This document shows positions 14,552-53,236 of a stretch of DNA of 64,000 bases, piece by piece. Position 1 is the stretch's first letter. Each line of letters begins with the position of its first letter. The stretch comes from Promethearchaeota archaeon (GTDB lineage: Archaea; Asgardarchaeota; Lokiarchaeia; Sigyniarchaeales; SOKP01): contig JAEOTA010000086.1 in the NCBI GenBank assembly GCA_016840085.1, forward strand, positions 32,001 to 96,000, given 5' to 3'. The position numbers were made by a program, and so were the translations under genes. A model generated the notes under the pieces. The model was not told the origin of the DNA and did no database searches. It saw only the letters and a program-made list of their open reading frames with translations.

Positions 14552-16024
14552 CTATCCTTTCACAACCCCGATTGGTACTAATCTTACTATTTTTTCAACA
14601 ATTCCAAGATCATGGCTGACTTGAACTACCTGATCAATATCTTTATAAGCTCCAGGACTTTCTTCAGCCAAAATTTTCATTGATGTACTTTTTATCAAAA
14701 TACCTTTGCTTCCTAAATCTTCTTTTACTTTAGGTCCCCAATATTTTTTAGTAGCTTTTGCTCTAGACATTACACGACCAGATCCATGCGCAGTAGATCC
14801 AAAAGATAAATCCATTGCTTTTGGTTTTCCTACACATAAATAGGATGCTGAACCCATTGTTCCAGGAATTAGAGCAGGTTGACCAATCACTTTATAATCT
14901 TGAGGAAGTGCGGGATGACCTGGTGGAAAAGCTCTAGTTGCACCCTTGCGATGGATGTTTAATTTCATTCTCTTACCATTAACTTCGTGCTCCTCTATTT
15001 TTAGTATATTATGACAAACACCATATATTAAATGGAAATCTAAAGCATCAACATCTTTTTTTAATATATGTTGAAAAGATTCTCTTAGCCAATGGGTTAT
15101 CAACTGACGATTAGTGAATCCAAAATTGGCCGCACATGCCATTTGTTTTAAATAGTTCTGAGCTTCAGGTGTATCCGCTGGAACACAAGCTAGTTCTCTA
15201 TCTGGGACTTTAACATTATACTTTTTCATTGCTTGCTCGATATTCCGTAAACTATCTGTACAAACTTGATGACCGAGAGCTCTACTCCCTGTATGAACCA
15301 TTACTGTTATCTGGTTGTTCTCAAATATTCCTAGCTTTTTAGCAACTCTATTATTATAGATCTTATCTACTTTTTGGATTTCAAGGAAATGATTTCCACT
15401 TCCTAAGGAACCAAGTTGTTTGATTGCACGTTGTTTTGCTTTTTGGGAAACTAAACTAGCATCGGCATCTTTTAAACATCCATTTTCTTCTAAATGTTTG
15501 ATATCCTCTTCAAGTGCGTAACCATTATCTAATGCCCAGTTAACTCCATGGTTTAAAACTTTATCTAAATCTGAATAGCTTATATTTAATTTACCCTTAG
15601 ATCCTAAACCAGAAGGGATATTCTTGAAAATCGTGTTTATCAAGTTAGGAAGATTATTTTTAATATCTTTAAACATGAAATTAGTACGTAAAAGTCGAAC
15701 TCCACAATTAATGTCGTATCCTACACCTCCAGGTGAAATCATGCCCGATCCTGCTTCTGTACCACAAACTCCTCCAATACAAAACCCATATCCTTGATGA
15801 GCATCCGATAGTGCAATAGCATGTTTTTTTATTCCTTGTAAACAAGCCACATTACATATTTGATCAAGAGTACGATCTAACTTAATTTTTTCTAAAATAT
15901 AGTCATTAGCATAAATCTTTACAGGTACTCTCATTTGAAATTTCTCTATGTTGCCGTGAATCCGTGTCATCAAAGCTTTTGGTGGAATCTCGTAAATATT
16001 TTCATCAATTTTATTGACATTCAT
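14552..16024 (-). CDS. rtcB: tRNA-splicing ligase RtcB
   Basis: DAHQGYGF, GVGYDINCGVR, GNHFLE, HTGSR, HRKGATR, HGSGR and YKDI motifs. Confidence 0.97.
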   Translation of the reverse strand: MNVNKIDENIYEIPPKALMTRIHGNIEKFQMRVPVKIYANDYILEKIKLDRTLDQICNVACLQGIKKHAIALSDAHQGYGFCIGGVCGTEAGSGMISPGGVGYDINCGVRLLRTNFMFKDIKNNLPNLINTIFKNIPSGLGSKGKLNISYSDLDKVLNHGVNWALDNGYALEEDIKHLEENGCLKDADASLVSQKAKQRAIKQLGSLGSGNHFLEIQKVDKIYNNRVAKKLGIFENNQITVMVHTGSRALGHQVCTDSLRNIEQAMKKYNVKVPDRELACVPADTPEAQNYLKQMACAANFGFTNRQLITHWLRESFQHILKKDVDALDFHLIYGVCHNILKIEEHEVNGKRMKLNIHRKGATRAFPPGHPALPQDYKVIGQPALIPGTMGSASYLCVGKPKAMDLSFGSTAHGSGRVMSRAKATKKYWGPKVKEDLGSKGILIKSTSMKILAEESPGAYKDIDQVVQVSHDLGIVEKIVRLVPIGVVKG

Positions 16025-41218: not shown

Positions 41219-41356
41219 TCAAACTCACTTTTAAAAATTAATTTATTAATAATAAAGACTCCTAAAAAGATACAAATAAATAATCTCTTCTTATAAATAA
41301 AACCTAATAAATAAAAAAGAAAAAAAAATAAAAATTTGTGTATCACAAATGACTTT

Positions 41357-42616
41357 TTAAAAAACCTGTTCTTTTCCAGCTATAAGACGTTTTCTTAATT
41401 CTATTAACCTATCAGCGCTCAACATCTCTTCCGAAACTTCTTTAGCGATATTTTTAATACTAGAGAAATCTACATTTTCAGCAGGGATAAGGTTTATTGA
41501 ATTTACCCATGGTTCTGTAATTTTATGACCAATCTGGCTTAATAATTTGACGTGTACTTCTAAAATATCCCCTTGTCCTCGTTTATAAATTTCTCTTGCC
41601 ATATTTGTGCTAAGGATGTTATATATCTTGCCTACATGATTAATTGGATTTTTACCACACACTGCTTCTAAGCTCATAGGGCGACATGGAGTAATTAAAC
41701 CATTCGACCTATTACCACGTCCGACTTCACCATCATCCCCACTTTCTGCGCTTGTTCCGGTGATTGTTAAATAAATCAAATTTTTTTGGAGTATATCAGC
41801 TACATTTACTTCACAAGTGACTTCTCGTTCTGGAATTATATCTGATGCTAAATCTAAAACAGCATCTTTAATCTGATTAGTATTATTAACATATTCATCA
41901 AGATCATTAATATATTTGCTAATCATTGCTGCTGCTACTGTTATACCTACTTTATTACCAACTCTTTCAGTCATAACCTTAATGTCTTCACCAGAAGCTT
42001 TACATTTATCTTTAAATTTATCAGAATTTATTAACCTTTCAGCTTCAAGAGTTATCTTTTCTGCATCTGAATAAGGAGCGTACCCAACTCCAAAACTCGT
42101 ATCATTTGCTAATGGAACTTCTTCAGAATGATGAGATTCATCAAATAAACCAGTTAAATCAGTAGAACCTGGTCTTATGGCAGTGTCAAATTGTATATCC
42201 CTATTTAAATCAAGATTTCGGAATATTTTTCCCATAACTTCACGTGAAGTTTCAAGGCATATAGTTGCAATGGGGATATATTCCATTTTATTTTCTCCAG
42301 AAGCACACTCCGTTAATATTTGATTAATAGCCCTTCCAACAATTAAAAAATATTGTGGTTGGATAATTAATCCCCCACCAAACTCTGGTTTAGCAACTCC
42401 CCCTACAAGTGCAGCCTTATCAACATTATGATGATAAACACGGTCAAATTTTTTTAAATAATAAGCACATAGTGCTCTAGAACATGCATCAGCAACAGCA
42501 TCACAGACACTATCCGGATGACCGATACCTTTTCTTTCAATGAGCTCGGGAAAATTAGAACGTTCAACAGCGAATTTAAGATCTAAATGTTCAATTTTTA
42601 ACATGTCATCTAACAT
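41357..42616 (-). CDS. mat: Archaeal S-adenosylmethionine synthetase
   Basis: [41 protein letters not shown]. Confidence 0.96.
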
Positions 42617-42793
42617 CTTTTTAATTATATAAAAAGTTCTTTAATGTATATTTTTAAATTAATTATTAGTTAAAATCATTATTAAAAGAAAAATGCTATA
42701 AACACATTTTATATCATTTTAAATAAATAATTTTTATAAATATTTAATCATTATAATATGCTTAAAATGCATAAACTAAAATTCCATTAGAAG

Positions 42794-43366
42794 ATGAAAA
42801 ATTTCCCGCATTTAAGTGAAATTAAACATTTAAGGAAAAAACTAGGAATAACCCAGAAGGAATTAGGAGAAAAGTTAAATATTCCACAATCCACAATTTC
42901 TAGGATTGAAAATGGAAGTATAGATCCACCATATTCCAAAATTAAAATAATATACGAATGTTTAGAAGGTGAACGTAAAACACGTAAAAAAATGAAAAAA
43001 CAAGCTGAAGATATCATGATAAGACATATTATATTTATTAAACCTTCTTCTTCAATAAGAGATGCTGCAGATCTCATGAATAAACATGGTATATCACAAC
43101 TTCCTATCTTAGAAAAACAACAAAACTTAGGCAGTTTAACCTCAAAAAAAATTCAAAAATTCATAACAGAAAATCCAAAAATTATAAATGGAGATGTTTC
43201 TCTCATAAAAGAATTACCCTTTCCAGAAGTTAATAGAGATTGGGGCATTAAAGATATTTCAACTCTACTTGAAAATTATCCTGCAGTTTTAGTAAAGGAC
43301 GAAAATTATAATTTTATAGGGATAATTACTGACGCTGATCTCCTTAAACTTACAAATAATTATTAA
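42794..43366 (+). CDS. Cro/C1 HTH + CBS-pair transcriptional regulator
   Basis: RKKLGITQKELG...QSTISRIE.G.IDP; ISQLP and GIIT.ADL. Confidence 0.9.
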   Translation: MKNFPHLSEIKHLRKKLGITQKELGEKLNIPQSTISRIENGSIDPPYSKIKIIYECLEGERKTRKKMKKQAEDIMIRHIIFIKPSSSIRDAADLMNKHGISQLPILEKQQNLGSLTSKKIQKFITENPKIINGDVSLIKELPFPEVNRDWGIKDISTLLENYPAVLVKDENYNFIGIITDADLLKLTNNY

Positions 43367-43482
43367 GTAGATATTCATTCAATTTTTAAACATTTCAAAA
43401 ACAGAAATAAATTAAAAAAGTTTCAAAACATTATAATCTTAAAAGAAAGTATATTTTTTATATACCATTAAAGTACTAGTAA

Positions 43483-44490
43483 TTGATGACAAACACAGTC
43501 ATAGAGAAGATTGATGATTTACTAAAAAAGGCAAACTTTGAAACCTTAAAGATAGGAAATTTTGCTAGTAGAACAAAGACAAAATTTTGCTTTGATTTAT
43601 TAGTAAAAAAGGATGCTCAAGTTTTTAGTGTCAAAATCTTTCCTAATATTGATAATTTAAATCCTGATCTAATCCGGGATATTAAACAATTATCATTTAT
43701 ATTAAAATCAAAACCACTATTAATTGGAATTAGGAACCGATATCAAAAGTTAGAGGATAACACAATATATGTAAGGGAAGGTTTACCTTTTATAACATTA
43801 AATACATTTGAGAAAATTCTAACTAAGAATATATTCCCCTATATTCTAGCAAGAAGAGGTGGAGGTGTGGTATTTTTAGACGGTACATTGATGAAAACTT
43901 TAAGAGAAAAACAATTAATAACAAGAAAGGAATTATCTGAAAGACTCGGAGTCACTAAAAGAACGGTGAGTGCTTATGAAAACGAAAGTATGCGACCTTC
44001 AGATCAAATAGCTGTAAAAATATTAAAAATACTAGAGAATAATGAAATTTTCAAAAAAATTAATGTCTTCAAATGGAACATTAAATCTCATCAAGAAGAT
44101 ATTGACCTTCTTGAAGAAAAAGAGTTAAACGATTTTGAATCTCATGTTCAAACAATAGTAAACGATATAGGATTATCTTCATATTGGTATAAAAAAGGCT
44201 CAATACCATTCAAATTATCATTATTTTCTTCAATTGATAAAATTGAACAAGAGGGCTTTTATCCTCTATTTTCTGCCATCTCTGAGGAACAAAGGAAAAT
44301 TAATCAAATGAATTTTCAATGTTTAAAGATGTTTAATGAGTTGTTCCATAAAACTGCACTATTTATTGTTAATAATGATGTAAGAATTCCCGTTTCGATA
44401 AAAAAAGATGATATACATATTGTTAAAATAAAGAATCTAGAAGAAATTGATGACGAGGAAGATTTCATTGAACTCATCCAAGAATCTTAG
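43483..44490 (+). CDS. Conserved archaeal HTH transcriptional regulator
   Basis: CFDLL, NIDNL, ARRGG, RKELSERLGVTKRTVSAYE. Confidence 0.8.
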   Translation: MMTNTVIEKIDDLLKKANFETLKIGNFASRTKTKFCFDLLVKKDAQVFSVKIFPNIDNLNPDLIRDIKQLSFILKSKPLLIGIRNRYQKLEDNTIYVREGLPFITLNTFEKILTKNIFPYILARRGGGVVFLDGTLMKTLREKQLITRKELSERLGVTKRTVSAYENESMRPSDQIAVKILKILENNEIFKKINVFKWNIKSHQEDIDLLEEKELNDFESHVQTIVNDIGLSSYWYKKGSIPFKLSLFSSIDKIEQEGFYPLFSAISEEQRKINQMNFQCLKMFNELFHKTALFIVNNDVRIPVSIKKDDIHIVKIKNLEEIDDEEDFIELIQES

Positions 44491-44497
44491 GGAAAAG

Positions 44498-45193
44498 TTG
44501 GAAATAATTTGCGGCATAGACGAGGCTGGTAGAATATAATTCAGATCGAATTATATGCAAATAGGTTCTGTCTTAGGCCCTATGGTTATTTGTGGAGTCT
44601 GTTTTACTAGAACTAAATTAGAATTTTTATCTGAAATTGGAGTTAAAGATTCAAAGAAATTATCAACCATAAGAAGGAATCAATTATCTGAACTTATCAA
44701 AAGTAATTGCTATTCTCATAAAATTATAGTGGTAAATCCTCACGAGATAGATCAGAGAGAAAAGAAAAATTTAACACTTAATCGACTTGAGGAATTAAAA
44801 ATGGCTGCCATCATTAATGATTTAAGGCCAAACATTATATATATTGATGCAGCTGATGTAAATGAAGAAAGATTTGGAAGATCAATTAAAAATTTACTAA
44901 ATTACAATCCAAAAAGAATTATATCTAAACATAAGGCTGATGATATTTATCCAATAGTTTCGGCAGGATCAATAATTGCAAAAGTTAAAAGGGATACTTT
45001 AATAGATGGATTAAAAGAAAAATATGGAGATCTTGGTTCTGGATACCCTTCTGATGTAGTAACTATTGAATTTCTTCGAGAATGGATAAAGAATCATAGA
45101 AAAGCACCCTCTATTGCAAGGAAATCATGGAATACCACCAAAAATATATTAAATGAAGAAATCGCTAATAGAAAAATAACTGAATTCTTTTAA
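44498..45193 (+). CDS. rnhB: Ribonuclease HII, interrupted by a 30-nt putative intron (44533-44562)
   Basis: TTG at 44498 gives MEIICGIDEAGR. After removing 30 nt it continues GSVLGPMV...VKDSKKL...HKAD..YPIVSAGSIIAKV.RD...GSGYPSD, with PIP box ITEFF. Confidence 0.92.
44533..44562 (+). other. Putative bulge-helix-bulge pre-mRNA intron in rnhB
   Basis: A-ATATAATTC-AGATC-GAATTATAT-GCAA-AT; perfect 9-bp stem; in-frame TAA at 44537; 3-nt bulges AGA and ATA. Confidence 0.8.
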
Positions 45194-45888
45194 ATGGTAT
45201 TTTTTTTTACAATTAATACGATATGATTAGAGGCATATTTATGAATATTTACACTTTCTATAATGTGATAATCTGCTTTTTCAAGAATTTTTTTTTCTTT
45301 AGCATAAATACGTTCAGATTTTTGAATACTATCTATAGATTGGGATTTTATAGCAAGAATTAATATTCCATCATCTTGTAAATAATAATTACAATTGTGA
45401 ATTGCGATCTCAGCTTGATTTGGTTGAGCAACATCTTGATAAATTATATTAGCTTTAGTAAAAATTGATTTCGCATAACTTTCAGGATATCGAGCATCTC
45501 CTAATATTGGAATAATATTTTTTCTACCTGAAGTATTCTGAATTAATTGTCTGATACTTCTTTCAGCAAATTCTACTCCATATATTATACTGGATCTTAA
45601 AATGTCAGACAGATGAGAAATTGTAGTCCCAGATGACGCTCCTAAATATAAACAAATTAAATCATTAGATAAGAAATTACTAGCAGGATTTTCTAGAATT
45701 AGAGCTGCTAGTTTACTCCTGAATGGATCCCATTCTCTATATTCCTCTCCTCTATATTCTATTAATTTCTCACCGTAAACTCTATAGCCAACGTTTAAGT
45801 TTTTTGTATAAAGTTTTCTTTTTTCTTGGGGGCCAGATATAAAAACATTATAAAATTTTGGATGATTTCTAATCTCAGTTTTAGTCAT
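45190..45888 (-). CDS. flpA: Fibrillarin-like rRNA/tRNA 2'-O-methyltransferase
   Basis: VYGE, YREWDPFRSKLAA, LYLGASSGTT.SH, DVAQPNQA. Confidence 0.96.
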   Translation of the reverse strand: MTKTEIRNHPKFYNVFISGPQEKRKLYTKNLNVGYRVYGEKLIEYRGEEYREWDPFRSKLAALILENPASNFLSNDLICLYLGASSGTTISHLSDILRSSIIYGVEFAERSIRQLIQNTSGRKNIIPILGDARYPESYAKSIFTKANIIYQDVAQPNQAEIAIHNCNYYLQDDGILILAIKSQSIDSIQKSERIYAKEKKILEKADYHIIESVNIHKYASNHIVLIVKKNTI

Positions 45889-45905
45889 TTTTTTACCTAT
45901 TTACC

Positions 45906-47111
45906 TCACTTTCTCTTTTTTGATTTTTTTTTCTTGCTCTTTATTGTATCTACCTTTTTAGGCGGATTTGGATATTTTTCTTCAATTTCTTTTATTTTTT
46001 CTTCAATTTCTTGTGATAATCTATCACCAATAAATTCTCCAGAAAAAAAGTCAACTTTAGCCGAAAGTCCTAACTTTCCCGCAACAACACGAGCTATTTT
46101 CCCCCTTTGATAAGGCTTAGCTGATCGAATTTGATTCCATTGAAATATTAATCCATGTTTAGGTCTTTTTTCACCAGTTCTCAAAAATCGATATAATGCT
46201 TTTTCAGCACCTAATAATTGGATTCTTGAAGCTGGCATGTAAGCTAACTTTTTTAATCCCCCCGCTTTTGAAATTAATTTAGCACCTATTAAAGAGCCCA
46301 CAATAGCTCTAAGATTAGGCGCTGTTTTTTCCATTAAATCGTCTAAATAACGCTCTAATTCCTCAATATAAGAATTTAAAGATAATATCTGGTTTGCATA
46401 AGCCTTGACGATCTCAAGATCAATTTCAGCACCCATTGAATTAATTGCTTGTTTGTATAAATTCAGAACCCTTTTTTCCTTCAAATTAAAGTTTTGTTTA
46501 AGATTATCGAGGGTATAATTGTCTCTATGTCCTAAACTTGAGATTAATTTTGTGATTAGAATATTATCATCAATAACTCTATCAGTTAATTCTGGAAAAT
46601 GTAATCCATACCATTCTCTAAGACGTGCGATAAATAGACTTAATGATTTCTTAATAATGTCTAATGTTTCATTTGTTTGAATAATAATTATGTCATTTTG
46701 CCCCCCAACTTCACTTACCTTCTTTTTAACTAACTCTTCATTAATTTTCTTATATCTGTCCAAGAGTTCGCTATTTGAAACGATTATTCCAACTTTTTTA
46801 AGCTGGTCTATTAGATTTAATCTAAAATTTTTAAATTCCAATGAAGTTATATTTAATTCAGTCGATACTTCTAACTTTTGAGAAGTTAATGTTTCCATTT
46901 TCTTATTATCAAAAATAAATTCATCAAAACCAGAATTTTTCAAATCTGAAATAAATTCTTTGTATTTATTTAAAATTTGCTCTGAATCTAAAGTTTTATA
47001 AAACTCTATAACTTTTTCATTATCCCCATTAAAATCAATGAAATTTAAAGTATTCCCTGTCTCATCAAGAGCAAATATACCCACCAAAGTATCAACAATG
47101 TAGCACTTCAT
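45906..47111 (-). CDS. nop5: C/D box sRNP protein Nop5 (Nop56/58)
   Basis: RLREWYGLHFPEL, APNL, PASRIQLLGAEKAL, PKHGLIF, RGKIAR. Confidence 0.96.
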   Translation of the reverse strand: MKCYIVDTLVGIFALDETGNTLNFIDFNGDNEKVIEFYKTLDSEQILNKYKEFISDLKNSGFDEFIFDNKKMETLTSQKLEVSTELNITSLEFKNFRLNLIDQLKKVGIIVSNSELLDRYKKINEELVKKKVSEVGGQNDIIIIQTNETLDIIKKSLSLFIARLREWYGLHFPELTDRVIDDNILITKLISSLGHRDNYTLDNLKQNFNLKEKRVLNLYKQAINSMGAEIDLEIVKAYANQILSLNSYIEELERYLDDLMEKTAPNLRAIVGSLIGAKLISKAGGLKKLAYMPASRIQLLGAEKALYRFLRTGEKRPKHGLIFQWNQIRSAKPYQRGKIARVVAGKLGLSAKVDFFSGEFIGDRLSQEIEEKIKEIEEKYPNPPKKVDTIKSKKKKSKKRK

Positions 47112-47189
47112 TTTTTTGAACTGTTCTAAATTATTATTTCTCTATTAAAAATGATTTATAAGATCATAATCATTATTTTCTTTTAAAAA

Positions 47190-48116
47190 ATGCTAGAAAT
47201 TAATCTATCAGGGTTAAAATTAAAATCTCCTATTATATTAGCATCTGGTATTTTAGGTGTTTCTTACTCTTCGATGAAAAGGGTTATCGATGCTGGAGCT
47301 GGTGCTGTAACTACAAAATCTATCGGACCAAGACCGCGAAAAGGATACAAAAATCCATCAATAATTGAAATCTATTCTGGCACTTTCATGAATGCAGTAG
47401 GTCTAGGTAATCCTGGTATTGATAATTTTGTCGCAGAAATAAAAGAAGCGAAAGAACATACCATACCATTAATTGTAAGTGTTTTTGGAGATACAAATGA
47501 TGTCTATCTTGATGTGGCGGTTAAAGCTGAAAAAGCTGGGGCTGATGCAATTGAAATAAATATCTCTTGTCCGCATGCTGAAGTATCTTCCATAGGAATT
47601 GATAAAGGTTTAACGTTTGAAATTGTAAAATTTCTAAAAGAAAAGCTTACAGTTCCTCTTTTTGTAAAATTAAACCCCAATGTAACAAATATAGTAGAAA
47701 TTGCTTTAGCTGCTGAGAAAGGTGGTGCTGATGGAGTAGTTGCTATAAATACTTTGTCAGCATTGAAAATTGATGTGAATACCAAAAGACCAATCTTATC
47801 ACATGGAAGTGGTGGTCTTTCTGGGAAAGCAATTCAACCTATAGCTATAAAGAAAGTATATGATTTATATAAAGTTTTAAAAATCCCAATTATTGGATGT
47901 GGAGGGATAGATTCTTGGCAAGATGTAGTAGAATTCTTTTTAGCTGGAGCTTCAGCAGTACAAATTGGTACAGCTTTCTATAAAGGAACCGAAATTATTA
48001 CTGAAATAAGTCATGGAATAACACAGTATCTTAAGGATAATGATTTTAAATCTATAAATGACATAAAAGGATTAGCCCATAAATTTAAGACTCAAGAGGT
48101 GCCAGATTTTGACTGA
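47190..48116 (+). CDS. pyrD: Dihydroorotate dehydrogenase, catalytic subunit (family 1B)
   Basis: ASG, TTKS, NAVGLGNPG, EINISCPH, INT, GGLSG. Confidence 0.95.
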   Translation: MLEINLSGLKLKSPIILASGILGVSYSSMKRVIDAGAGAVTTKSIGPRPRKGYKNPSIIEIYSGTFMNAVGLGNPGIDNFVAEIKEAKEHTIPLIVSVFGDTNDVYLDVAVKAEKAGADAIEINISCPHAEVSSIGIDKGLTFEIVKFLKEKLTVPLFVKLNPNVTNIVEIALAAEKGGADGVVAINTLSALKIDVNTKRPILSHGSGGLSGKAIQPIAIKKVYDLYKVLKIPIIGCGGIDSWQDVVEFFLAGASAVQIGTAFYKGTEIITEISHGITQYLKDNDFKSINDIKGLAHKFKTQEVPDFD

Positions 48117-48963
48117 AAATACAATAAGGACAGTGAAAGTACAGAAAATAATTGATGAATGTAAAGATGTTAAAACACTTGTTTTTAACATGAAAATTAG
48201 CATGAATGAAAATTATATTATTCCTAAACCAGGACAATTTGTTATGGTATGGGTACCTGGTATAGATGAAGTTCCAATGTCCCTCTCTGGATGTGATACT
48301 GATGGAAATTGGTCAATTACAGTAAAAAATGTTGGAGAAAGTACAAATGCTATGTACAACTTAAACATTGGAGATTATATTGGAGTAAGAGGGCCTTTAG
48401 GTAATCATTTTAAACTTATAAATCTAAGTTTAAAAGAAATTTACTTAATTGGCGGTGGAATAGGTATGGCACCTCTAAAATTCCTCTCTAATCAGCTTAC
48501 AAAAATGAATATAAAACACACGATCATAGAGGGCGTAAAAATTGAGAATGACATTATGTTTAAAGATTATTTTCAAGAAGCTATAACAAGTATTTCTGAA
48601 GTTCATTATTGTACTGATGATGGAAGTTATGGAATTAAAGGAGTCATCTCTGATATTTTTAAAGAAATGCTAAATAAATTTAATAAAAATGATCTCTCAA
48701 ATCTAGTTGTTTATTCCTGTGGCCCAGAAATAATGCTATATAAATTATTTCAAATATGCCAAGAACATAAAATTGAGTTTTATGCGAGTCTTGAAAGAAT
48801 AATGAGGTGTGGGTGTGGATTATGTGGATTATGCACTTTAGATCCATTAGGTTTACTGGTTTGTAAGGATGGACCAATTTTTAATTCTGATATGTTAAAA
48901 AAAATTGAGGACTTTGGGAAGTTTAAGAGAGATTTTACAGGATACAAAATCCCCCTTATGTAA
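48109..48963 (+). CDS. pyrK: Dihydroorotate dehydrogenase electron transfer subunit
   Basis: PGQFVMVW, RGPLG, GGGIG, TDDGS, CGPEIM, MRCGCGLCGLC...CKDGPIF. Confidence 0.93.
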   Translation: MTENTIRTVKVQKIIDECKDVKTLVFNMKISMNENYIIPKPGQFVMVWVPGIDEVPMSLSGCDTDGNWSITVKNVGESTNAMYNLNIGDYIGVRGPLGNHFKLINLSLKEIYLIGGGIGMAPLKFLSNQLTKMNIKHTIIEGVKIENDIMFKDYFQEAITSISEVHYCTDDGSYGIKGVISDIFKEMLNKFNKNDLSNLVVYSCGPEIMLYKLFQICQEHKIEFYASLERIMRCGCGLCGLCTLDPLGLLVCKDGPIFNSDMLKKIEDFGKFKRDFTGYKIPLM

Positions 48964-48998
48964 TTCCCGTTATTCTACCCTCTATTTTATGAAAATTA

Positions 48999-50291
48999 TT
49001 ATATATGTATTTCATTTTGAGTTTCTTTTGCCTGTTGTCCGAGCCCCATTAGGAATAAATCTGATTTAACTCCAAGTTTCGCAATTGTTATAATAGGCAT
49101 GAGTATATCCATATACAAATATGGCTTTACTGGTCTATCATCATTCTTAAGGATTTCCTCTAATTTACTATGGAATTCTGAACTTAAGGTTTTTACTTGT
49201 TCAAGTTGATCCTCAGAAATAAAGCGATAATTTATTAAATTGGTGTCGAGCACTTGCATAAGTAAATCAATAGTTTCTATTAACGGTAATTCTTCCATCG
49301 CAACAGATGTCAAGATTTGATTTTCTGTCGCTTCTATAAAGTTATTTAGGTAGTCTGCGATCATCTTGATTTTTTTATATTCATAGGAAAATCTAGGTAA
49401 ATTTGCTAAAAGAGGTTCCCAATTATTCTCTTTTATTGCCTTTCCTAAATCAAACTCCTTTTTCTTCAGTAATTCATCAAAATTTTGACTAAGCTTATAA
49501 TATTTGCGTTTAATATTGCCTGGTTGTATCTCATCTTCTTTTGAGTATGATTCAAGCAGGTGTAATTTGAGCAATTCTTTTGTATGTCGAGAAAATGTTG
49601 CTTTATTCTTACCCATATGATAAACCATTTCTTTAAGGCTTAATTCCTTATAGATTTTTAATAAAATGACTATTCTTAAGTCAAGAGTACTTTTAAAAAC
49701 ATCAACTAAGTTCCTACTATTTATAATCCTCGTGAAATTTGTAAAGAGCTTCTTCACTTTGTCATCGGTTAAAGCAGAAATTTCAATAGCACCAATTAAA
49801 TCCTTTGACAACGCTAACTTATTAGCATTTTTCGTTTTAATTTCTCTTTTTTCTTGAAGATCAAGCTTATTACCAATCATTAATATAGGAGTTCTTCTAT
49901 TTAACCTGCTCGATCTGTAAATGGCTAACCATTTATCTAAATCACCTAAACTTGATTTATTAGTTATGTCGTAAACAAATATTGCAGCAGCAGCTCCCAA
50001 GGTGAAACTTTCAAATAAAAGTCGTGGTTTTTTTAGTTTACCCTCCCTTTTTGTTTTATCAATAATAAGATCCTTGAATTTAGGATTACCCGTAAGCTCC
50101 CAAATATGCAAAATAAAAGTTTCTCCATCCACTTCTATAGTATCCTTATAGAATGATACTCCTAAAGTCAATTTTGGAGGCACTCCTAAACTTTCATTGT
50201 CGGCTTCTTTAAAACATTTACTTAATAGGGTGGTTTTTCCCACTCCACTCTCACCAAACACAATAATCTTGAATACTTTTGGTTTTTTCAT
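48999..50291 (-). CDS. Rab-like small GTPase fused to an ArsR-like winged-helix domain
   Basis: GESGVGKT, WELTG, GNKLD, EISAL; then LRIVILL...LSLKEM...KATFSRHTKEL...KRKYYKLS. Confidence 0.8.
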   Translation of the reverse strand: MKKPKVFKIIVFGESGVGKTTLLSKCFKEADNESLGVPPKLTLGVSFYKDTIEVDGETFILHIWELTGNPKFKDLIIDKTKREGKLKKPRLLFESFTLGAAAAIFVYDITNKSSLGDLDKWLAIYRSSRLNRRTPILMIGNKLDLQEKREIKTKNANKLALSKDLIGAIEISALTDDKVKKLFTNFTRIINSRNLVDVFKSTLDLRIVILLKIYKELSLKEMVYHMGKNKATFSRHTKELLKLHLLESYSKEDEIQPGNIKRKYYKLSQNFDELLKKKEFDLGKAIKENNWEPLLANLPRFSYEYKKIKMIADYLNNFIEATENQILTSVAMEELPLIETIDLLMQVLDTNLINYRFISEDQLEQVKTLSSEFHSKLEEILKNDDRPVKPYLYMDILMPIITIAKLGVKSDLFLMGLGQQAKETQNEIHI

Positions 50292-50765
50292 CTTATAAGA
50301 TCACTTGAAGTATATTATTATTCTACACAATAATTGTAACATTGCATACTTAAAAATGTTTGCAACGCTGGAGATCGTCCCTTCTAATCAAAAAATCCAT
50401 TTTTAACAAATAAGAAAAAAAAAAGATTTAATTATCAAAGAAAGACTAATATCTTAACTGGTCTGACTCAAAAAAATCAAGTTTGAAAAAAAAAACTTAT
50501 AGATTAAAGGATTTGAATCAAAAAATATTTCTTTGATACTTAACATACATTAATTGACATAGAAAGAACTTTTAGAGAGCATCAAAATAATTTTATTTAT
50601 TAAATTTTAATGGCTTATTTAGAAACTTAATTTCTATTCACCTTATATTAAATCTGAATACTAATGATAAATCCAAAAATTTAGTAGTTTTCTGCCATTT
50701 AATTTTATACAGTATTAAATAAACAAATTATACTAATGCAAAATTCAGATAAGATTGAAATAATA

Positions 50766-50900
50766 GGATTATGTGCTTTAGATCCATTAGGGTTACTGGT
50801 TTGCAAAGATGGACCAATTTTTAATTCAGAAACTCTAAAAGAAATTCAAGATTTTGGGAAATATAAAAGAGGTTTTACTGGAAAGAAAATAAAAATGTAA
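50766..50900 (+). repeat. Diverged second copy of the pyrK 3' end (direct repeat of 48826-48963)
   Basis: Encodes GLCALDPLGLLVCKDGPIFNSETLKEIQDFGKYKRGFTGKKIKM* versus GLCTLDPLGLLVCKDGPIFNSDMLKKIEDFGKFKRDFTGYKIPLM*. Confidence 0.9.
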
Positions 50901-50904
50901 TTAA

Positions 50905-51534
50905 TTAAATCTCAAATTGCAAATCTTTAACATTCTCTCGATATAGTAATTGCTGTTTCTTTTGAGCTTCCCGCCAAGTTTTTGGAAATTCATATTTTTC
51001 ATAAAAAATTTCATCTATAGCTTTCTTCATTTGTAAAGCACATATGTCATACGATACTTTGCCTACTCCTGTTCCCCTTCCTGGAATAGCAACACTTTTT
51101 ACCTTTTCTTTTATCAAGTTACCATTTTTAAATTTCCCATATTTTACCAAAATTAAAACTGCTCGTGTAGCTAAATAAACATTCACTGAATTCTTTAAAA
51201 TCATAGGCACTCTCATTGTAGGAGCAGAAATTACATATTGTATCTTTTCATTACCAGTTTCTATTATTTCTGCCATACCTACGATTAATTCTCCATGATA
51301 CTTTTCTTTAATAATTTTTTGTAATTTTTCTTGCACATACCAACCGAAAAATCGTGATATTTTCAAATCAAGCCCACCATCCATAAATCCGAATGAGTTT
51401 GCTGGACTTACCAGTGCATCACATTTTACGTCAAAAATAGATCCATTAATTATTTCAATATTTGGATCTTGTTTAAAGAATTTATGCCATGATTTTATCA
51501 GATTGATGTTTAAATCGCAAAGTATTAACTTCAT
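50905..51534 (-). CDS. Macro domain protein (ADP-ribose binding/hydrolase)
   Basis: DALVSPANSFGFMDGGLD, APTMRVP, PG.GTGVG. Confidence 0.9.
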   Translation of the reverse strand: MKLILCDLNINLIKSWHKFFKQDPNIEIINGSIFDVKCDALVSPANSFGFMDGGLDLKISRFFGWYVQEKLQKIIKEKYHGELIVGMAEIIETGNEKIQYVISAPTMRVPMILKNSVNVYLATRAVLILVKYGKFKNGNLIKEKVKSVAIPGRGTGVGKVSYDICALQMKKAIDEIFYEKYEFPKTWREAQKKQQLLYRENVKDLQFEI

Positions 51535-51601: not shown

Positions 51602-53236
51602 ATGAGTATTTTAGAAAAAGAAAAAGCTGAGAAAGTCGAAAGAATATCAAGAGAAGTAATAGAATATTTAATAAAAAATCCTGAAACTTTACGTGAAAAA
51701 ATAACTAATATTAAAGGAAGAATAAGTAAGAAATATTTCTACGATAAAGTTATTAAAAATGCAACAATCTTAGATTATGCGTTAGAAGAAGAAAAGCAAG
51801 TAATACTCCATATTCTTAAAAGAAGAATCACCAGAACTTTATCTGGGGTTTCTGTGATTGCTATAATGACTAAATCCCTTCCATGTCCAGGTACGTGTAT
51901 ATATTGTCCGGGAAAAAACTCTCAACCCGGCGAAAAAGTTGCACAATCCTACACTGGTCGAGAACCTGCGGCTATGAGATCTATTCACTGTGATTATGAT
52001 CCTTATTTACAAGTTCAGAGTAGAATCAAGGATTTAGAAGCAATAGGACATAAAGTAGATAAAATTGAATTGATCATCATGGGAGGTACATTCTTATCTA
52101 CAGATCCAAGATATCAGGAAGAATTCATTAAAGGGGCTTTAGAGGGTATTATTGAACAACGAGTAAACAATTTAAAAGAAGCAAAGAAACTTGCTGAAAA
52201 ATCTAAGAGGAGAGTTATTGGTATAACAATAGAAACAAGACCAGACTACTGTAAGGAAGAAAATGTGGATCAAATGTTAAATTATGGGACAACTCGTGTA
52301 GAAATTGGAATCCAGACGCTTTATGATGAGATCTATGAGTTGGTGAAAAGGGGGCATTCTACTTTTGACAGCAAGGAAGCAATAAGAATTGCTAAAGATG
52401 CTGGATTAAAAGTCAATGCTCATATGATGCCAAATTTACCTGGATCTAATATTACAAAAGATTTGGAAATGTTTAAGTTATTATACTCCAATCCGGAATA
52501 TCGTCCAGACATGTTAAAGATCTATCCTACTATTGTTGTAAAAGGGACTGAACTATTTGATTGGTGGAAAAAAGGAAATTATAAACCCTATTCTGAGGAA
52601 GAACTTATTAATTTAATAGCGCATGTGAAACTACATATTCCTCCATATGTAAGAATTCAAAGGATCATGAGAGATATACCAGCATATTTAATAGAAGCAG
52701 GATGCAAAAAAAGTAATTTAAGACAACTAGTTCAAGAAAAATTAGCGCATTTAAAGGGTAAATGCAATTGTATAAGATGCCGCGAATTTGGCTTAAGTAA
52801 AAAATTAGATTTGGGTAATGAGCAATTAATTGAAGATGTTAATTTATTTCGTTTAGATTATGATGCATCCCTAGGAAAAGAAATATTTTTGTCTTATGAG
52901 AATAGGAAAGAGAATTATTTAATAGGGTATTTACGCTTAAGAAAACCTTCTGAATTTGCTCATAGACCCGAACTAAATGATGGAAAAACATTAATCGTAA
53001 GGGAAATCAAGGTAGTTGGAGAAATGGTCCCAAAAGACTTGAAACCCAAACGTTTCATTCAAATTCAACATAGAGGATATGGAAAATTATTAATGGAAAA
53101 TGCTGAAAAAATCTCATTTGAAGAATTCGGAGCTAAAAAACTAGCAGTTATAAGTGGTTTCGGAGCAAGAGATTGGTTCTATGAAATTGGATATAAATTA
53201 GATGGTGTTTATGTCTCCAAAACCCTAAATCGTTGA
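51602..53236 (+). CDS. elp3: Elp3 tRNA U34 carboxymethyltransferase (radical SAM + KAT)
   Basis: RTLSGV, CPGTCIYCPG, QSYTG.EP, ETRPD, KIYPT, QHRGYG. Confidence 0.96.
   Translation: MSILEKEKAEKVERISREVIEYLIKNPETLREKITNIKGRISKKYFYDKVIKNATILDYALEEEKQVILHILKRRITRTLSGVSVIAIMTKSLPCPGTCIYCPGKNSQPGEKVAQSYTGREPAAMRSIHCDYDPYLQVQSRIKDLEAIGHKVDKIELIIMGGTFLSTDPRYQEEFIKGALEGIIEQRVNNLKEAKKLAEKSKRRVIGITIETRPDYCKEENVDQMLNYGTTRVEIGIQTLYDEIYELVKRGHSTFDSKEAIRIAKDAGLKVNAHMMPNLPGSNITKDLEMFKLLYSNPEYRPDMLKIYPTIVVKGTELFDWWKKGNYKPYSEEELINLIAHVKLHIPPYVRIQRIMRDIPAYLIEAGCKKSNLRQLVQEKLAHLKGKCNCIRCREFGLSKKLDLGNEQLIEDVNLFRLDYDASLGKEIFLSYENRKENYLIGYLRLRKPSEFAHRPELNDGKTLIVREIKVVGEMVPKDLKPKRFIQIQHRGYGKLLMENAEKISFEEFGAKKLAVISGFGARDWFYEIGYKLDGVYVSKTLNR

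What the first reader, a model, noticed from the sequence alone, without database searches (positions are those of the whole stretch)
44498..44600. Candidate BHB-type pre-mRNA intron splitting the catalytic motif of RNase HII
Seen: TTG(44498) encodes MEIICGIDEAGR, followed by 30 extra nt with an in-frame TAA, then GSVLGPMV. Deleting 44533-44562 restores the conserved GIDEAGRGSVLGP motif and a 221-aa protein. The insert is a perfect 9-bp hairpin (ATATAATTC/GAATTATAT). It is flanked by a 3-nt bulge AGA, a 4-nt central helix TGGT/GCAA (3 of 4 pairs) and a 3-nt bulge ATA. Cutting after the second base of each bulge, the archaeal EndA rule, regenerates exactly AG|A GGT. Size and AT-richness match the tRNA introns in this window. 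Known: archaeal mRNA introns are very rare, classically cbf5 in Crenarchaeota. Inference: this Asgard archaeon splices a protein-coding mRNA with EndA/RtcB, possibly coupling ribonucleotide excision repair to splicing activity. An ATG inside the intron (44555) would let unspliced RNA make a truncated form lacking the catalytic DE residues.
Basis: partly seen in the sequence, partly recalled or inferred. Interest (0 to 1): 0.92.

Follow-up and report, generated by a model that had tools for sequence, protein, structure and literature searches.

The report
tRNA-type mini-intron splits RNase HII gene
The RNase HII gene of this Asgard (Loki-type) archaeon is broken inside its catalytic motif by a 30-base insert shaped like a tRNA intron, and comparison with about 145 related inserts shows it almost certainly has to be cut out of the messenger RNA, something the papers I could search document inside only one other archaeal coding sequence (cbf5).

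Summary
Observation confirmed; main interpretation supported by comparative evidence, not by RNA. A 30-nt stop-containing hairpin (44533-44562) splits the Arg codon of the DEAGRG motif of rnhB. It sits at this site in 50 of 51 same-genus and 81 of 120 same-family genomes, and in 67 distinct non-Loki archaeal sequences (20-47 nt, 39 not multiples of 3). The 4-bp central helix covaries (0/2000 shuffles); cutting after the second bulge base gives Arg in 144/145, including three alleles whose DNA codon is Ser; every in-frame insert holds a stop. Both exons are under purifying selection. Readthrough, ribosome bypassing, pseudogene and artefact are rejected. Corrections: the conserved start is TTG 44468 (231 aa); the internal ATG is not conserved; regulatory coupling has no support (at least 13 gains/losses in the family). 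Outside this family a free-standing LAGLIDADG gene abuts 25/62 intron-bearing and 0/25 intronless loci; it was not found in 135 family genomes, so this copy looks like an orphaned, inherited intron. No RNA run was listed; the catalytic EndA subunit lies in an assembly gap. This scan had already reported the same intron and endonuclease link on other DNA.

The parts
44468..44532 (+). rnhB exon 1 from the conserved start TTG 44468 (overlaps the end of the upstream regulator gene); encodes the first strand with the catalytic Asp and Glu and the first two bases of the Arg codon
   Evidence: TTG at this position in 54/68 intron-bearing and 18/26 intronless relatives; intronless relatives are called with this N-terminus (P0032, P0072); C,G,D,E,A,G invariant in 87/87 intron-bearing alleles with synonymous variation
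   Evidence: start codon here in 4 of 68
44527..44533 (+). 5' strand of the BHB: central helix strand UGGU (44527-44530) and 5' bulge AGA (44531-44533); predicted cut after 44532
44533..44562 (+). 30-nt intron (EndA register), with in-frame TAA 44537-44539 and non-conserved ATG 44555
44534..44556 (+). inner 9-bp hairpin with 5-nt loop
   Evidence: z -6.15; 4 of 9 pairs with both-side changes, 90% of cells paired
44557..44563 (+). 3' strand of the BHB: central helix strand GCAA (44557-44560) and 3' bulge AUA (44561-44563); predicted cut after 44562; base 44563 completes the Arg codon
   Evidence: last bulge base is A or G in 145/145
44563..45193 (+). rnhB exon 2, rest of archaeal RNase HII, intact and under purifying selection
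   Evidence: (dN/dS 0.13-0.3; later acidic motifs kept in 85-86 of 87)
43483..44490 (+). upstream HTH regulator gene, same neighbour in intron-bearing and intronless family members; no homing endonuclease between it and rnhB
14555..15862 (-). RtcB RNA ligase domain match (the presumed ligase), same window
   Evidence: G000:C83:46555-47862, E 1e-166

Best explanation
It is a bulge-helix-bulge intron in the rnhB pre-mRNA. The transcript folds so that the last exon-1 bases pair with the intron end (4-bp helix between two 3-nt bulges); the heterotetrameric splicing endonuclease EndA cuts after the second base of each bulge, RtcB joins the exons, and the Arg codon of the catalytic DEAGRG motif is rebuilt, giving a 231-aa RNase HII. 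Unspliced RNA always terminates in the insert. In this family the intron is an inherited passenger kept because only precise removal leaves a working gene; the site is a hot spot that in other archaea is spread together with an adjacent free-standing LAGLIDADG endonuclease. Shown: anatomy, conservation, covariation, register, selection on both exons, association with the endonuclease outside this family. Inferred: cleavage, ligation, endonuclease activity, and any common origin of the Loki and non-Loki introns.
For: Same site in 50/51 genus and 81/120 family genomes, 12 Thermoplasmatota MAGs and many further archaeal contigs. 145 distinct inserts: central helix 4/4 in 57/78 Loki and 65/67 others; partner shuffling of 41 distinct helix combinations 91% vs 73%, 0/2000; 6 pairs with both-side changes, slid controls at most 43% paired vs 91%. 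Spliced codon Arg in 144/145; L290, L281 and L313 carry AGT (Ser) in the exon and recover Arg only in the EndA register. 42 inserts are not multiples of 3; all 103 in-frame ones have a stop (62% expected). Exon wobble positions are constrained only in intron-bearing alleles (Glu GAG 87/87 vs 20/30; Gly GGA 0/87 vs 14/30). RtcB and the EndA structural subunit are in the genome, the catalytic subunit in 44/45 genus genomes. Precedent: cbf5 introns of 16-44 nt split a catalytic codon (PMC2738675).
Against: No spliced RNA was seen here. This allele's central helix has a G.A mismatch and needs a relaxed-specificity EndA; the blind consensus fold did not recover the BHB in the weakly pairing Loki set. 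The catalytic EndA subunit is missing from this assembly, though its four neighbours are missing too. The relatives are not independent samples, so the shuffle counts overstate significance. The genome has other RNase H genes, so need for this one is not proven.
Confidence: 0.93

Rival explanations
1. Translational bypassing (T4 gene 60 type): the ribosome takes off before the stop, skips the hairpin and lands on a matching codon.
For: Stop followed by a hairpin; in this window the first and last codons of the insert are both ATA; the stop is the second codon in 67/75 Loki inserts.
Against: Matched codons in only 5/78 Loki and 8/67 other inserts; the hop would add a residue inside the G-R-G motif; it does not explain exon-intron helix covariation or the three Ser-codon alleles.
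Confidence: 0.02
2. Split gene: a short N-terminal peptide and a C-terminal chain restarting at ATG 44555 (complementing, or an inactive truncated form); no splicing.
For: An in-frame start lies in the insert in 38/49 Loki alleles; databases annotate the 212-213-aa product.
Against: 11/49 have no such start; the ATG/TTG arises from stem-closing bases plus the G that pairs in the central helix; it cannot account for covariation or for restoring Arg from a Ser codon.
Confidence: 0.03
3. Stop-codon readthrough or recoding giving a 10-residue insertion.
For: 75/78 Loki inserts are exactly 30 nt.
Against: Stop is TAA, TAG or TGA, often two stops; 28-, 29- and 31-nt Loki alleles and 39 non-3n others; the insertion would fall in the active-site motif.
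Confidence: 0.01
4. Pseudogene or assembly artefact, with the RNase HIII-like gene on C9 doing the work.
For: A second type-2 RNase H gene (25% identity) and an RNase HI-like gene exist.
Against: Insert shared by more than 80 genomes; dN/dS 0.13-0.3; 87/87 full-length exon 2 and invariant exon-1 catalytic residues.
Confidence: 0.01

Closest known systems
cbf5 pre-mRNA intron of Crenarchaeota (Watanabe 2002; Yokobori 2009, PMC2738675)
   Same: Short (16-44 nt) intron with often relaxed BHB, cut between second and third bulge bases, splitting an active-site codon, patchy gain and loss, host with hetero-oligomeric EndA.
   Different: Different gene and phylum; the rnhB site is occupied in several unrelated archaeal groups and is linked to a free-standing endonuclease gene outside this family; cbf5 splicing is shown by cDNA, this one is not.
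BHB intron in the 5' UTR of Haloferax HVO_1309 (Schwarz 2020, PMC7714728)
   Same: EndA-processed mRNA intron of similar size (46 nt).
   Different: Non-coding region, removal not needed for a reading frame.
Asgard tRNA introns (bioRxiv 10.64898/2026.10.13.758758)
   Same: Same motif, enzyme and size class (median 22-23 nt); repeated gains; two EndA paralogues.
   Different: [quoted passage not shown]
Collaborative / trans homing of phage introns by free-standing endonucleases (review PMC2988022)
   Same: In non-Loki loci: endonuclease-less intron at a conserved active-site sequence, adjacent free-standing endonuclease gene, short co-conversion tract.
   Different: Intron is protein-spliced BHB type, not group I; enzyme is LAGLIDADG plus two winged helices; cleavage untested; the endonuclease is not found in this genome or its family.

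Membership tests
EndA-spliced BHB pre-mRNA intron (cbf5 type) | 4-bp central helix between two 3-nt bulges on opposite strands | tested here: met
   3/4 pairs here (relaxed); 4/4 in 122 of 145 homologous inserts, with covariation
EndA-spliced BHB pre-mRNA intron (cbf5 type) | flanking exon helix and intron helix | tested here: met
   (90% of cells paired in both)
EndA-spliced BHB pre-mRNA intron (cbf5 type) | cuts after the second base of each bulge restore the reading frame and motif | tested here: met
   Arg in 144/145; three Ser-codon alleles discriminate the register
EndA-spliced BHB pre-mRNA intron (cbf5 type) | host encodes EndA and RtcB | tested here: inconclusive
   RtcB and structural subunit present; catalytic subunit and its neighbours absent from this assembly, present in 44/45 genus genomes
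EndA-spliced BHB pre-mRNA intron (cbf5 type) | spliced mRNA or excised intron observed; in vitro cleavage | not testable with these tools
   no RNA holder was listed
Group I / group II self-splicing introns | ribozyme core of hundreds of bases, Rfam match | tested here: not met
   30 nt; no Rfam match above chance
Programmed translational bypassing (gene 60 type) | matched take-off and landing codons | tested here: not met
   5/78 and 8/67
Stop-codon recoding (Sec/Pyl/readthrough) | one fixed stop codon and a conserved frame | tested here: not met
   three stop types, double stops, non-3n lengths
Collaborative homing unit | free-standing endonuclease gene beside the intron-bearing allele | tested here: not met
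   0/91 Loki intron loci, none in G000, 0/135 family genomes with one query; met in 25/62 non-Loki intron loci vs 0/25 intronless
Collaborative homing unit | endonuclease cuts intronless but not intron-bearing allele | not testable with these tools
   needs a cleavage assay
Archaeal RNase HII | DEAGRG motif plus later acidic residues, RNase_HII domain | tested here: met
   Pfam PF01351 E 1e-40; intronless relative matches solved RNase HII structures at E 1e-50 with the same motif; motif complete only after splicing

The most novel reading that the evidence does not exclude
Protein-spliced mini-introns in archaeal mRNAs are a widespread mobile class: the rnhB active-site sequence is a homing target, invaded across phyla by an endonuclease-plus-mini-intron partnership, and this Asgard family holds an orphaned, vertically kept descendant as one of many mRNA introns it must splice with tRNA enzymes. 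This would supply a route of arrival for BHB introns, which a 2026 census left open.
Probability: 0.5. Interest if true: 0.88.

Novelty: new variant of a known kind. Interest (0 to 1): 0.72.

Why it matters
Coding-sequence splicing in archaea is documented for one gene (cbf5) in the papers I could search. A conserved intron in a DNA-repair enzyme of the archaeal relatives of eukaryotes means mRNA splicing by EndA/RtcB is a routine step there, that public annotations of these genes are N-terminally truncated and lack the catalytic residues, and that a 60-base substrate is available for a direct test. The link to a free-standing endonuclease at the same site in other archaea makes the open question of how tRNA-type introns arrive in genes directly testable.

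Tried and rejected
RNA evidence: no RNA holder listed for window 41300-51000, so no reads could be laid; this is no evidence either way. A spliced-junction pattern specific to the Gly-Ser alleles found nothing in JGI contigs, and protein searches returned no junction-spanning Gly-Ser protein; the intact-motif proteins I traced (P0251, P0032) came from genomic DNA of intronless alleles. RNAalifold without constraints did not recover the BHB. A structure-only genome scan for further mRNA introns was not enriched over wrong-bulge geometries (19 vs 8-22; 54 vs 38-67; one search timed out), so I give no genome-wide count. No tRNA intron or other genomic sequence resembles the insert. The broken RNase HI-like hit L303 is a decayed copy, not an intron. 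IQ-TREE timed out; trees are FastTree, midpoint-rooted, so gain versus loss is not firmly polarised. Literature searches for an rnhB intron or Asgard mRNA introns found none; subscription journals are largely not covered. The spliced protein has no reference, so it was not folded or searched; exons and intronless relatives were used.

Full report
Observation. The sequence is as described. Exon 1 ends in the codons for D-E-A-G-R, a TAA follows at 44537, and the RNase HII frame resumes at 44564. Removing 44533-44562 gives an open frame. The inner 9-bp hairpin folds far better than shuffles (z -6.15), and an exon-exon helix forms outside it. The central helix has three pairs and one G.A. The host is a 4.68-Mb, 29.5% G+C genome whose closest rnhB relatives are Promethearchaeota/Lokiarchaeia MAGs.

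Start codon. The likely product is 231 aa.

Distribution. The insert occupies the same site in 50 of 51 same-genus genomes with a motif match and 81 of 120 in the family (G348 holds both forms, probably contamination). None of the roughly 105 listed matches from other Asgard families had an insert of up to 30 nt (further rows were not listed). A FastTree of exon-2 DNA needs at least 13 changes of state in the family. The same site is interrupted in 12 of 118 genomes of a Thermoplasmatota order (35-47 nt) and in many metagenome contigs with distant RNase HII and 28-56% G+C.

Why it is an intron. Among 145 distinct inserts (78 Loki, 67 other) the central helix is fully paired in 57 and 65; the exon strand and intron strand change together (for example CGGG/CCCG, AGGG/CCCU, UGGC/GCCA, CGGU/ACCG), and shuffling partners among 41 distinct combinations never reaches the observed pairing (91% vs 73%, 0/2000). 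Within the near relatives six pairs show both-side changes and sliding the partner drops pairing from 91% to at most 43%; these sequences are related, so the counts are indicative. The last base of the 3' bulge is always A or G, so the EndA register gives Arg in 144 of 145 (Lys once). In L290, L281 and L313 the exon DNA reads AGT (Ser) and only the EndA register restores Arg. Forty-two inserts break the frame, and all 103 in-frame inserts contain a stop, against 62% expected from composition; in the 28 diverse non-Loki cases the stop lies anywhere from codon 1 to 11, which suggests selection against an unspliced read-through product. Exon wobble positions that pair in the motif are fixed in intron-bearing alleles and free in intronless ones. 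Both exons are conserved as protein: dN/dS 0.13-0.3 for exon 2, only synonymous changes in exon 1 in the four pairs tested, catalytic residues kept.

Machinery. RtcB is in the window and the structural EndA subunit on C79. The catalytic subunit is not in this assembly, but neither are its four usual neighbours, and 44 of 45 same-genus genomes have it; an assembly gap is the simple reading. A two-subunit EndA is common in Asgard archaea (bioRxiv 10.64898/2026.10.13.758758), and that enzyme type is credited with relaxed motifs such as cbf5's (PMC2738675).

Rivals. Bypassing needs matched codons, found in 5 of 78 and 8 of 67. Readthrough fails on variable and double stops and non-3n lengths. The internal ATG is absent from 11 of 49 alleles and follows from the stem sequence, so a designed truncated isoform is unsupported. 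The genome also has an RNase HIII-like gene on C9 and an RNase HI-like gene on C5, but this copy shows no decay. Regulatory coupling of repair to splicing has no evidence.

How it spreads. A 344-aa protein with two LAGLIDADG motifs and two winged helices ends mostly 35-38 nt before the splice site in 25 of 62 non-Loki intron-bearing loci and in 0 of 25 intronless ones; its 449 homologues are named from Woesearchaeota, Pacearchaeota, Nanoarchaeota and Euryarchaeota where named. Close intron-plus/minus pairs show a co-conversion signature: L095 vs L088 are 67-73% identical around the site and 92-100% beyond +30. This fits collaborative homing as described for phages (PMC2988022); cleavage is untested. 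The gene is absent from all Loki loci and from G000 and was not found with one query in 135 family genomes, so in this family the intron is orphaned; whether it shares an origin with the non-Loki introns is not shown, only the site and phase are the same. Loss in the family occurs by replacement of a short patch: intronless L306 is nested among intron-bearing alleles (support 0.995), 95-98% identical to L307 on both sides but 63% in the last 30 exon-1 bases, where it matches intronless L310.

Comparison and novelty. It works like, and meets the testable defining features of, the cbf5-type BHB pre-mRNA intron; the RNA-level feature could not be tested. The searched literature lists only cbf5 and a Haloferax 5' UTR intron and nothing on rnhB or Asgard mRNAs. 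I rate it a new variant of a known kind. Earlier notes of this scan report the same intron in other genomes, the endonuclease link, and more such introns in this genome; I re-derived the first two and saw two of the latter restore known motifs (EF-2, E1), but my genome scan gave no enrichment and no count.

Verdict.

Noticed in passing
G000 C4:16173 (-) and C78:56854 (-): My BHB scan recovered 30-nt inserts whose removal restores the EF-2 effector motif and the E1 nucleotide-binding motif, as earlier notes claimed.
   Followed up: partly
G000 C24:121207 (-) and C46:78415 (+): Candidate 32-nt and 29-nt BHB-like inserts; removal of the first completes a CxxCxxCxxxC ferredoxin motif, the second joins two long coding stretches before a Rossmann-type motif. 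Not checked in relatives.
   Followed up: no
L306 (GCA_019057915.1) vs L307 and L310: Intron loss by a roughly 40-nt gene-conversion patch from an intronless sister lineage, flanks 95-98% identical to the intron-bearing allele.
   Followed up: partly
L236:588-1622 (-), L252, L146 and 22 other loci: Free-standing LAGLIDADG plus two winged-helix gene abutting intron-bearing rnhB in Thermoplasmatota and DPANN-type contigs; 449 homologues.
   Followed up: yes
window 44564-44569: Gly-Ser instead of the usual Gly-Pro after the splice site in 28 of 49 intron-bearing Loki alleles and 0 of 24 intronless ones in that set; the change makes an A-U pair in the exon helix. One clade, and Gly-Ser also occurs in intronless L292 and L104, so only a hint of RNA structure shaping protein sequence.
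   Followed up: partly
G000 C9:18861-19388 (+): RNase HIII-like second type-2 RNase H gene with long extensions, intact.
   Followed up: partly
L303 (G000 C5:71779-72102): Decayed duplicate of an RNase HI-like gene with two stops, 32 kb from an intact copy.
   Followed up: partly
window 51602-53236: Elp3 gene is one open frame here, whereas earlier notes report an intron in Elp3 of related genomes.
   Followed up: no
L027/L048: Intron present but followed by a scaffold gap; excluded from most counts.
   Followed up: yes
public protein records P0001-P0320: Intron-bearing rnhB genes are annotated as 204-213-aa proteins lacking the catalytic Asp and Glu.
   Followed up: yes
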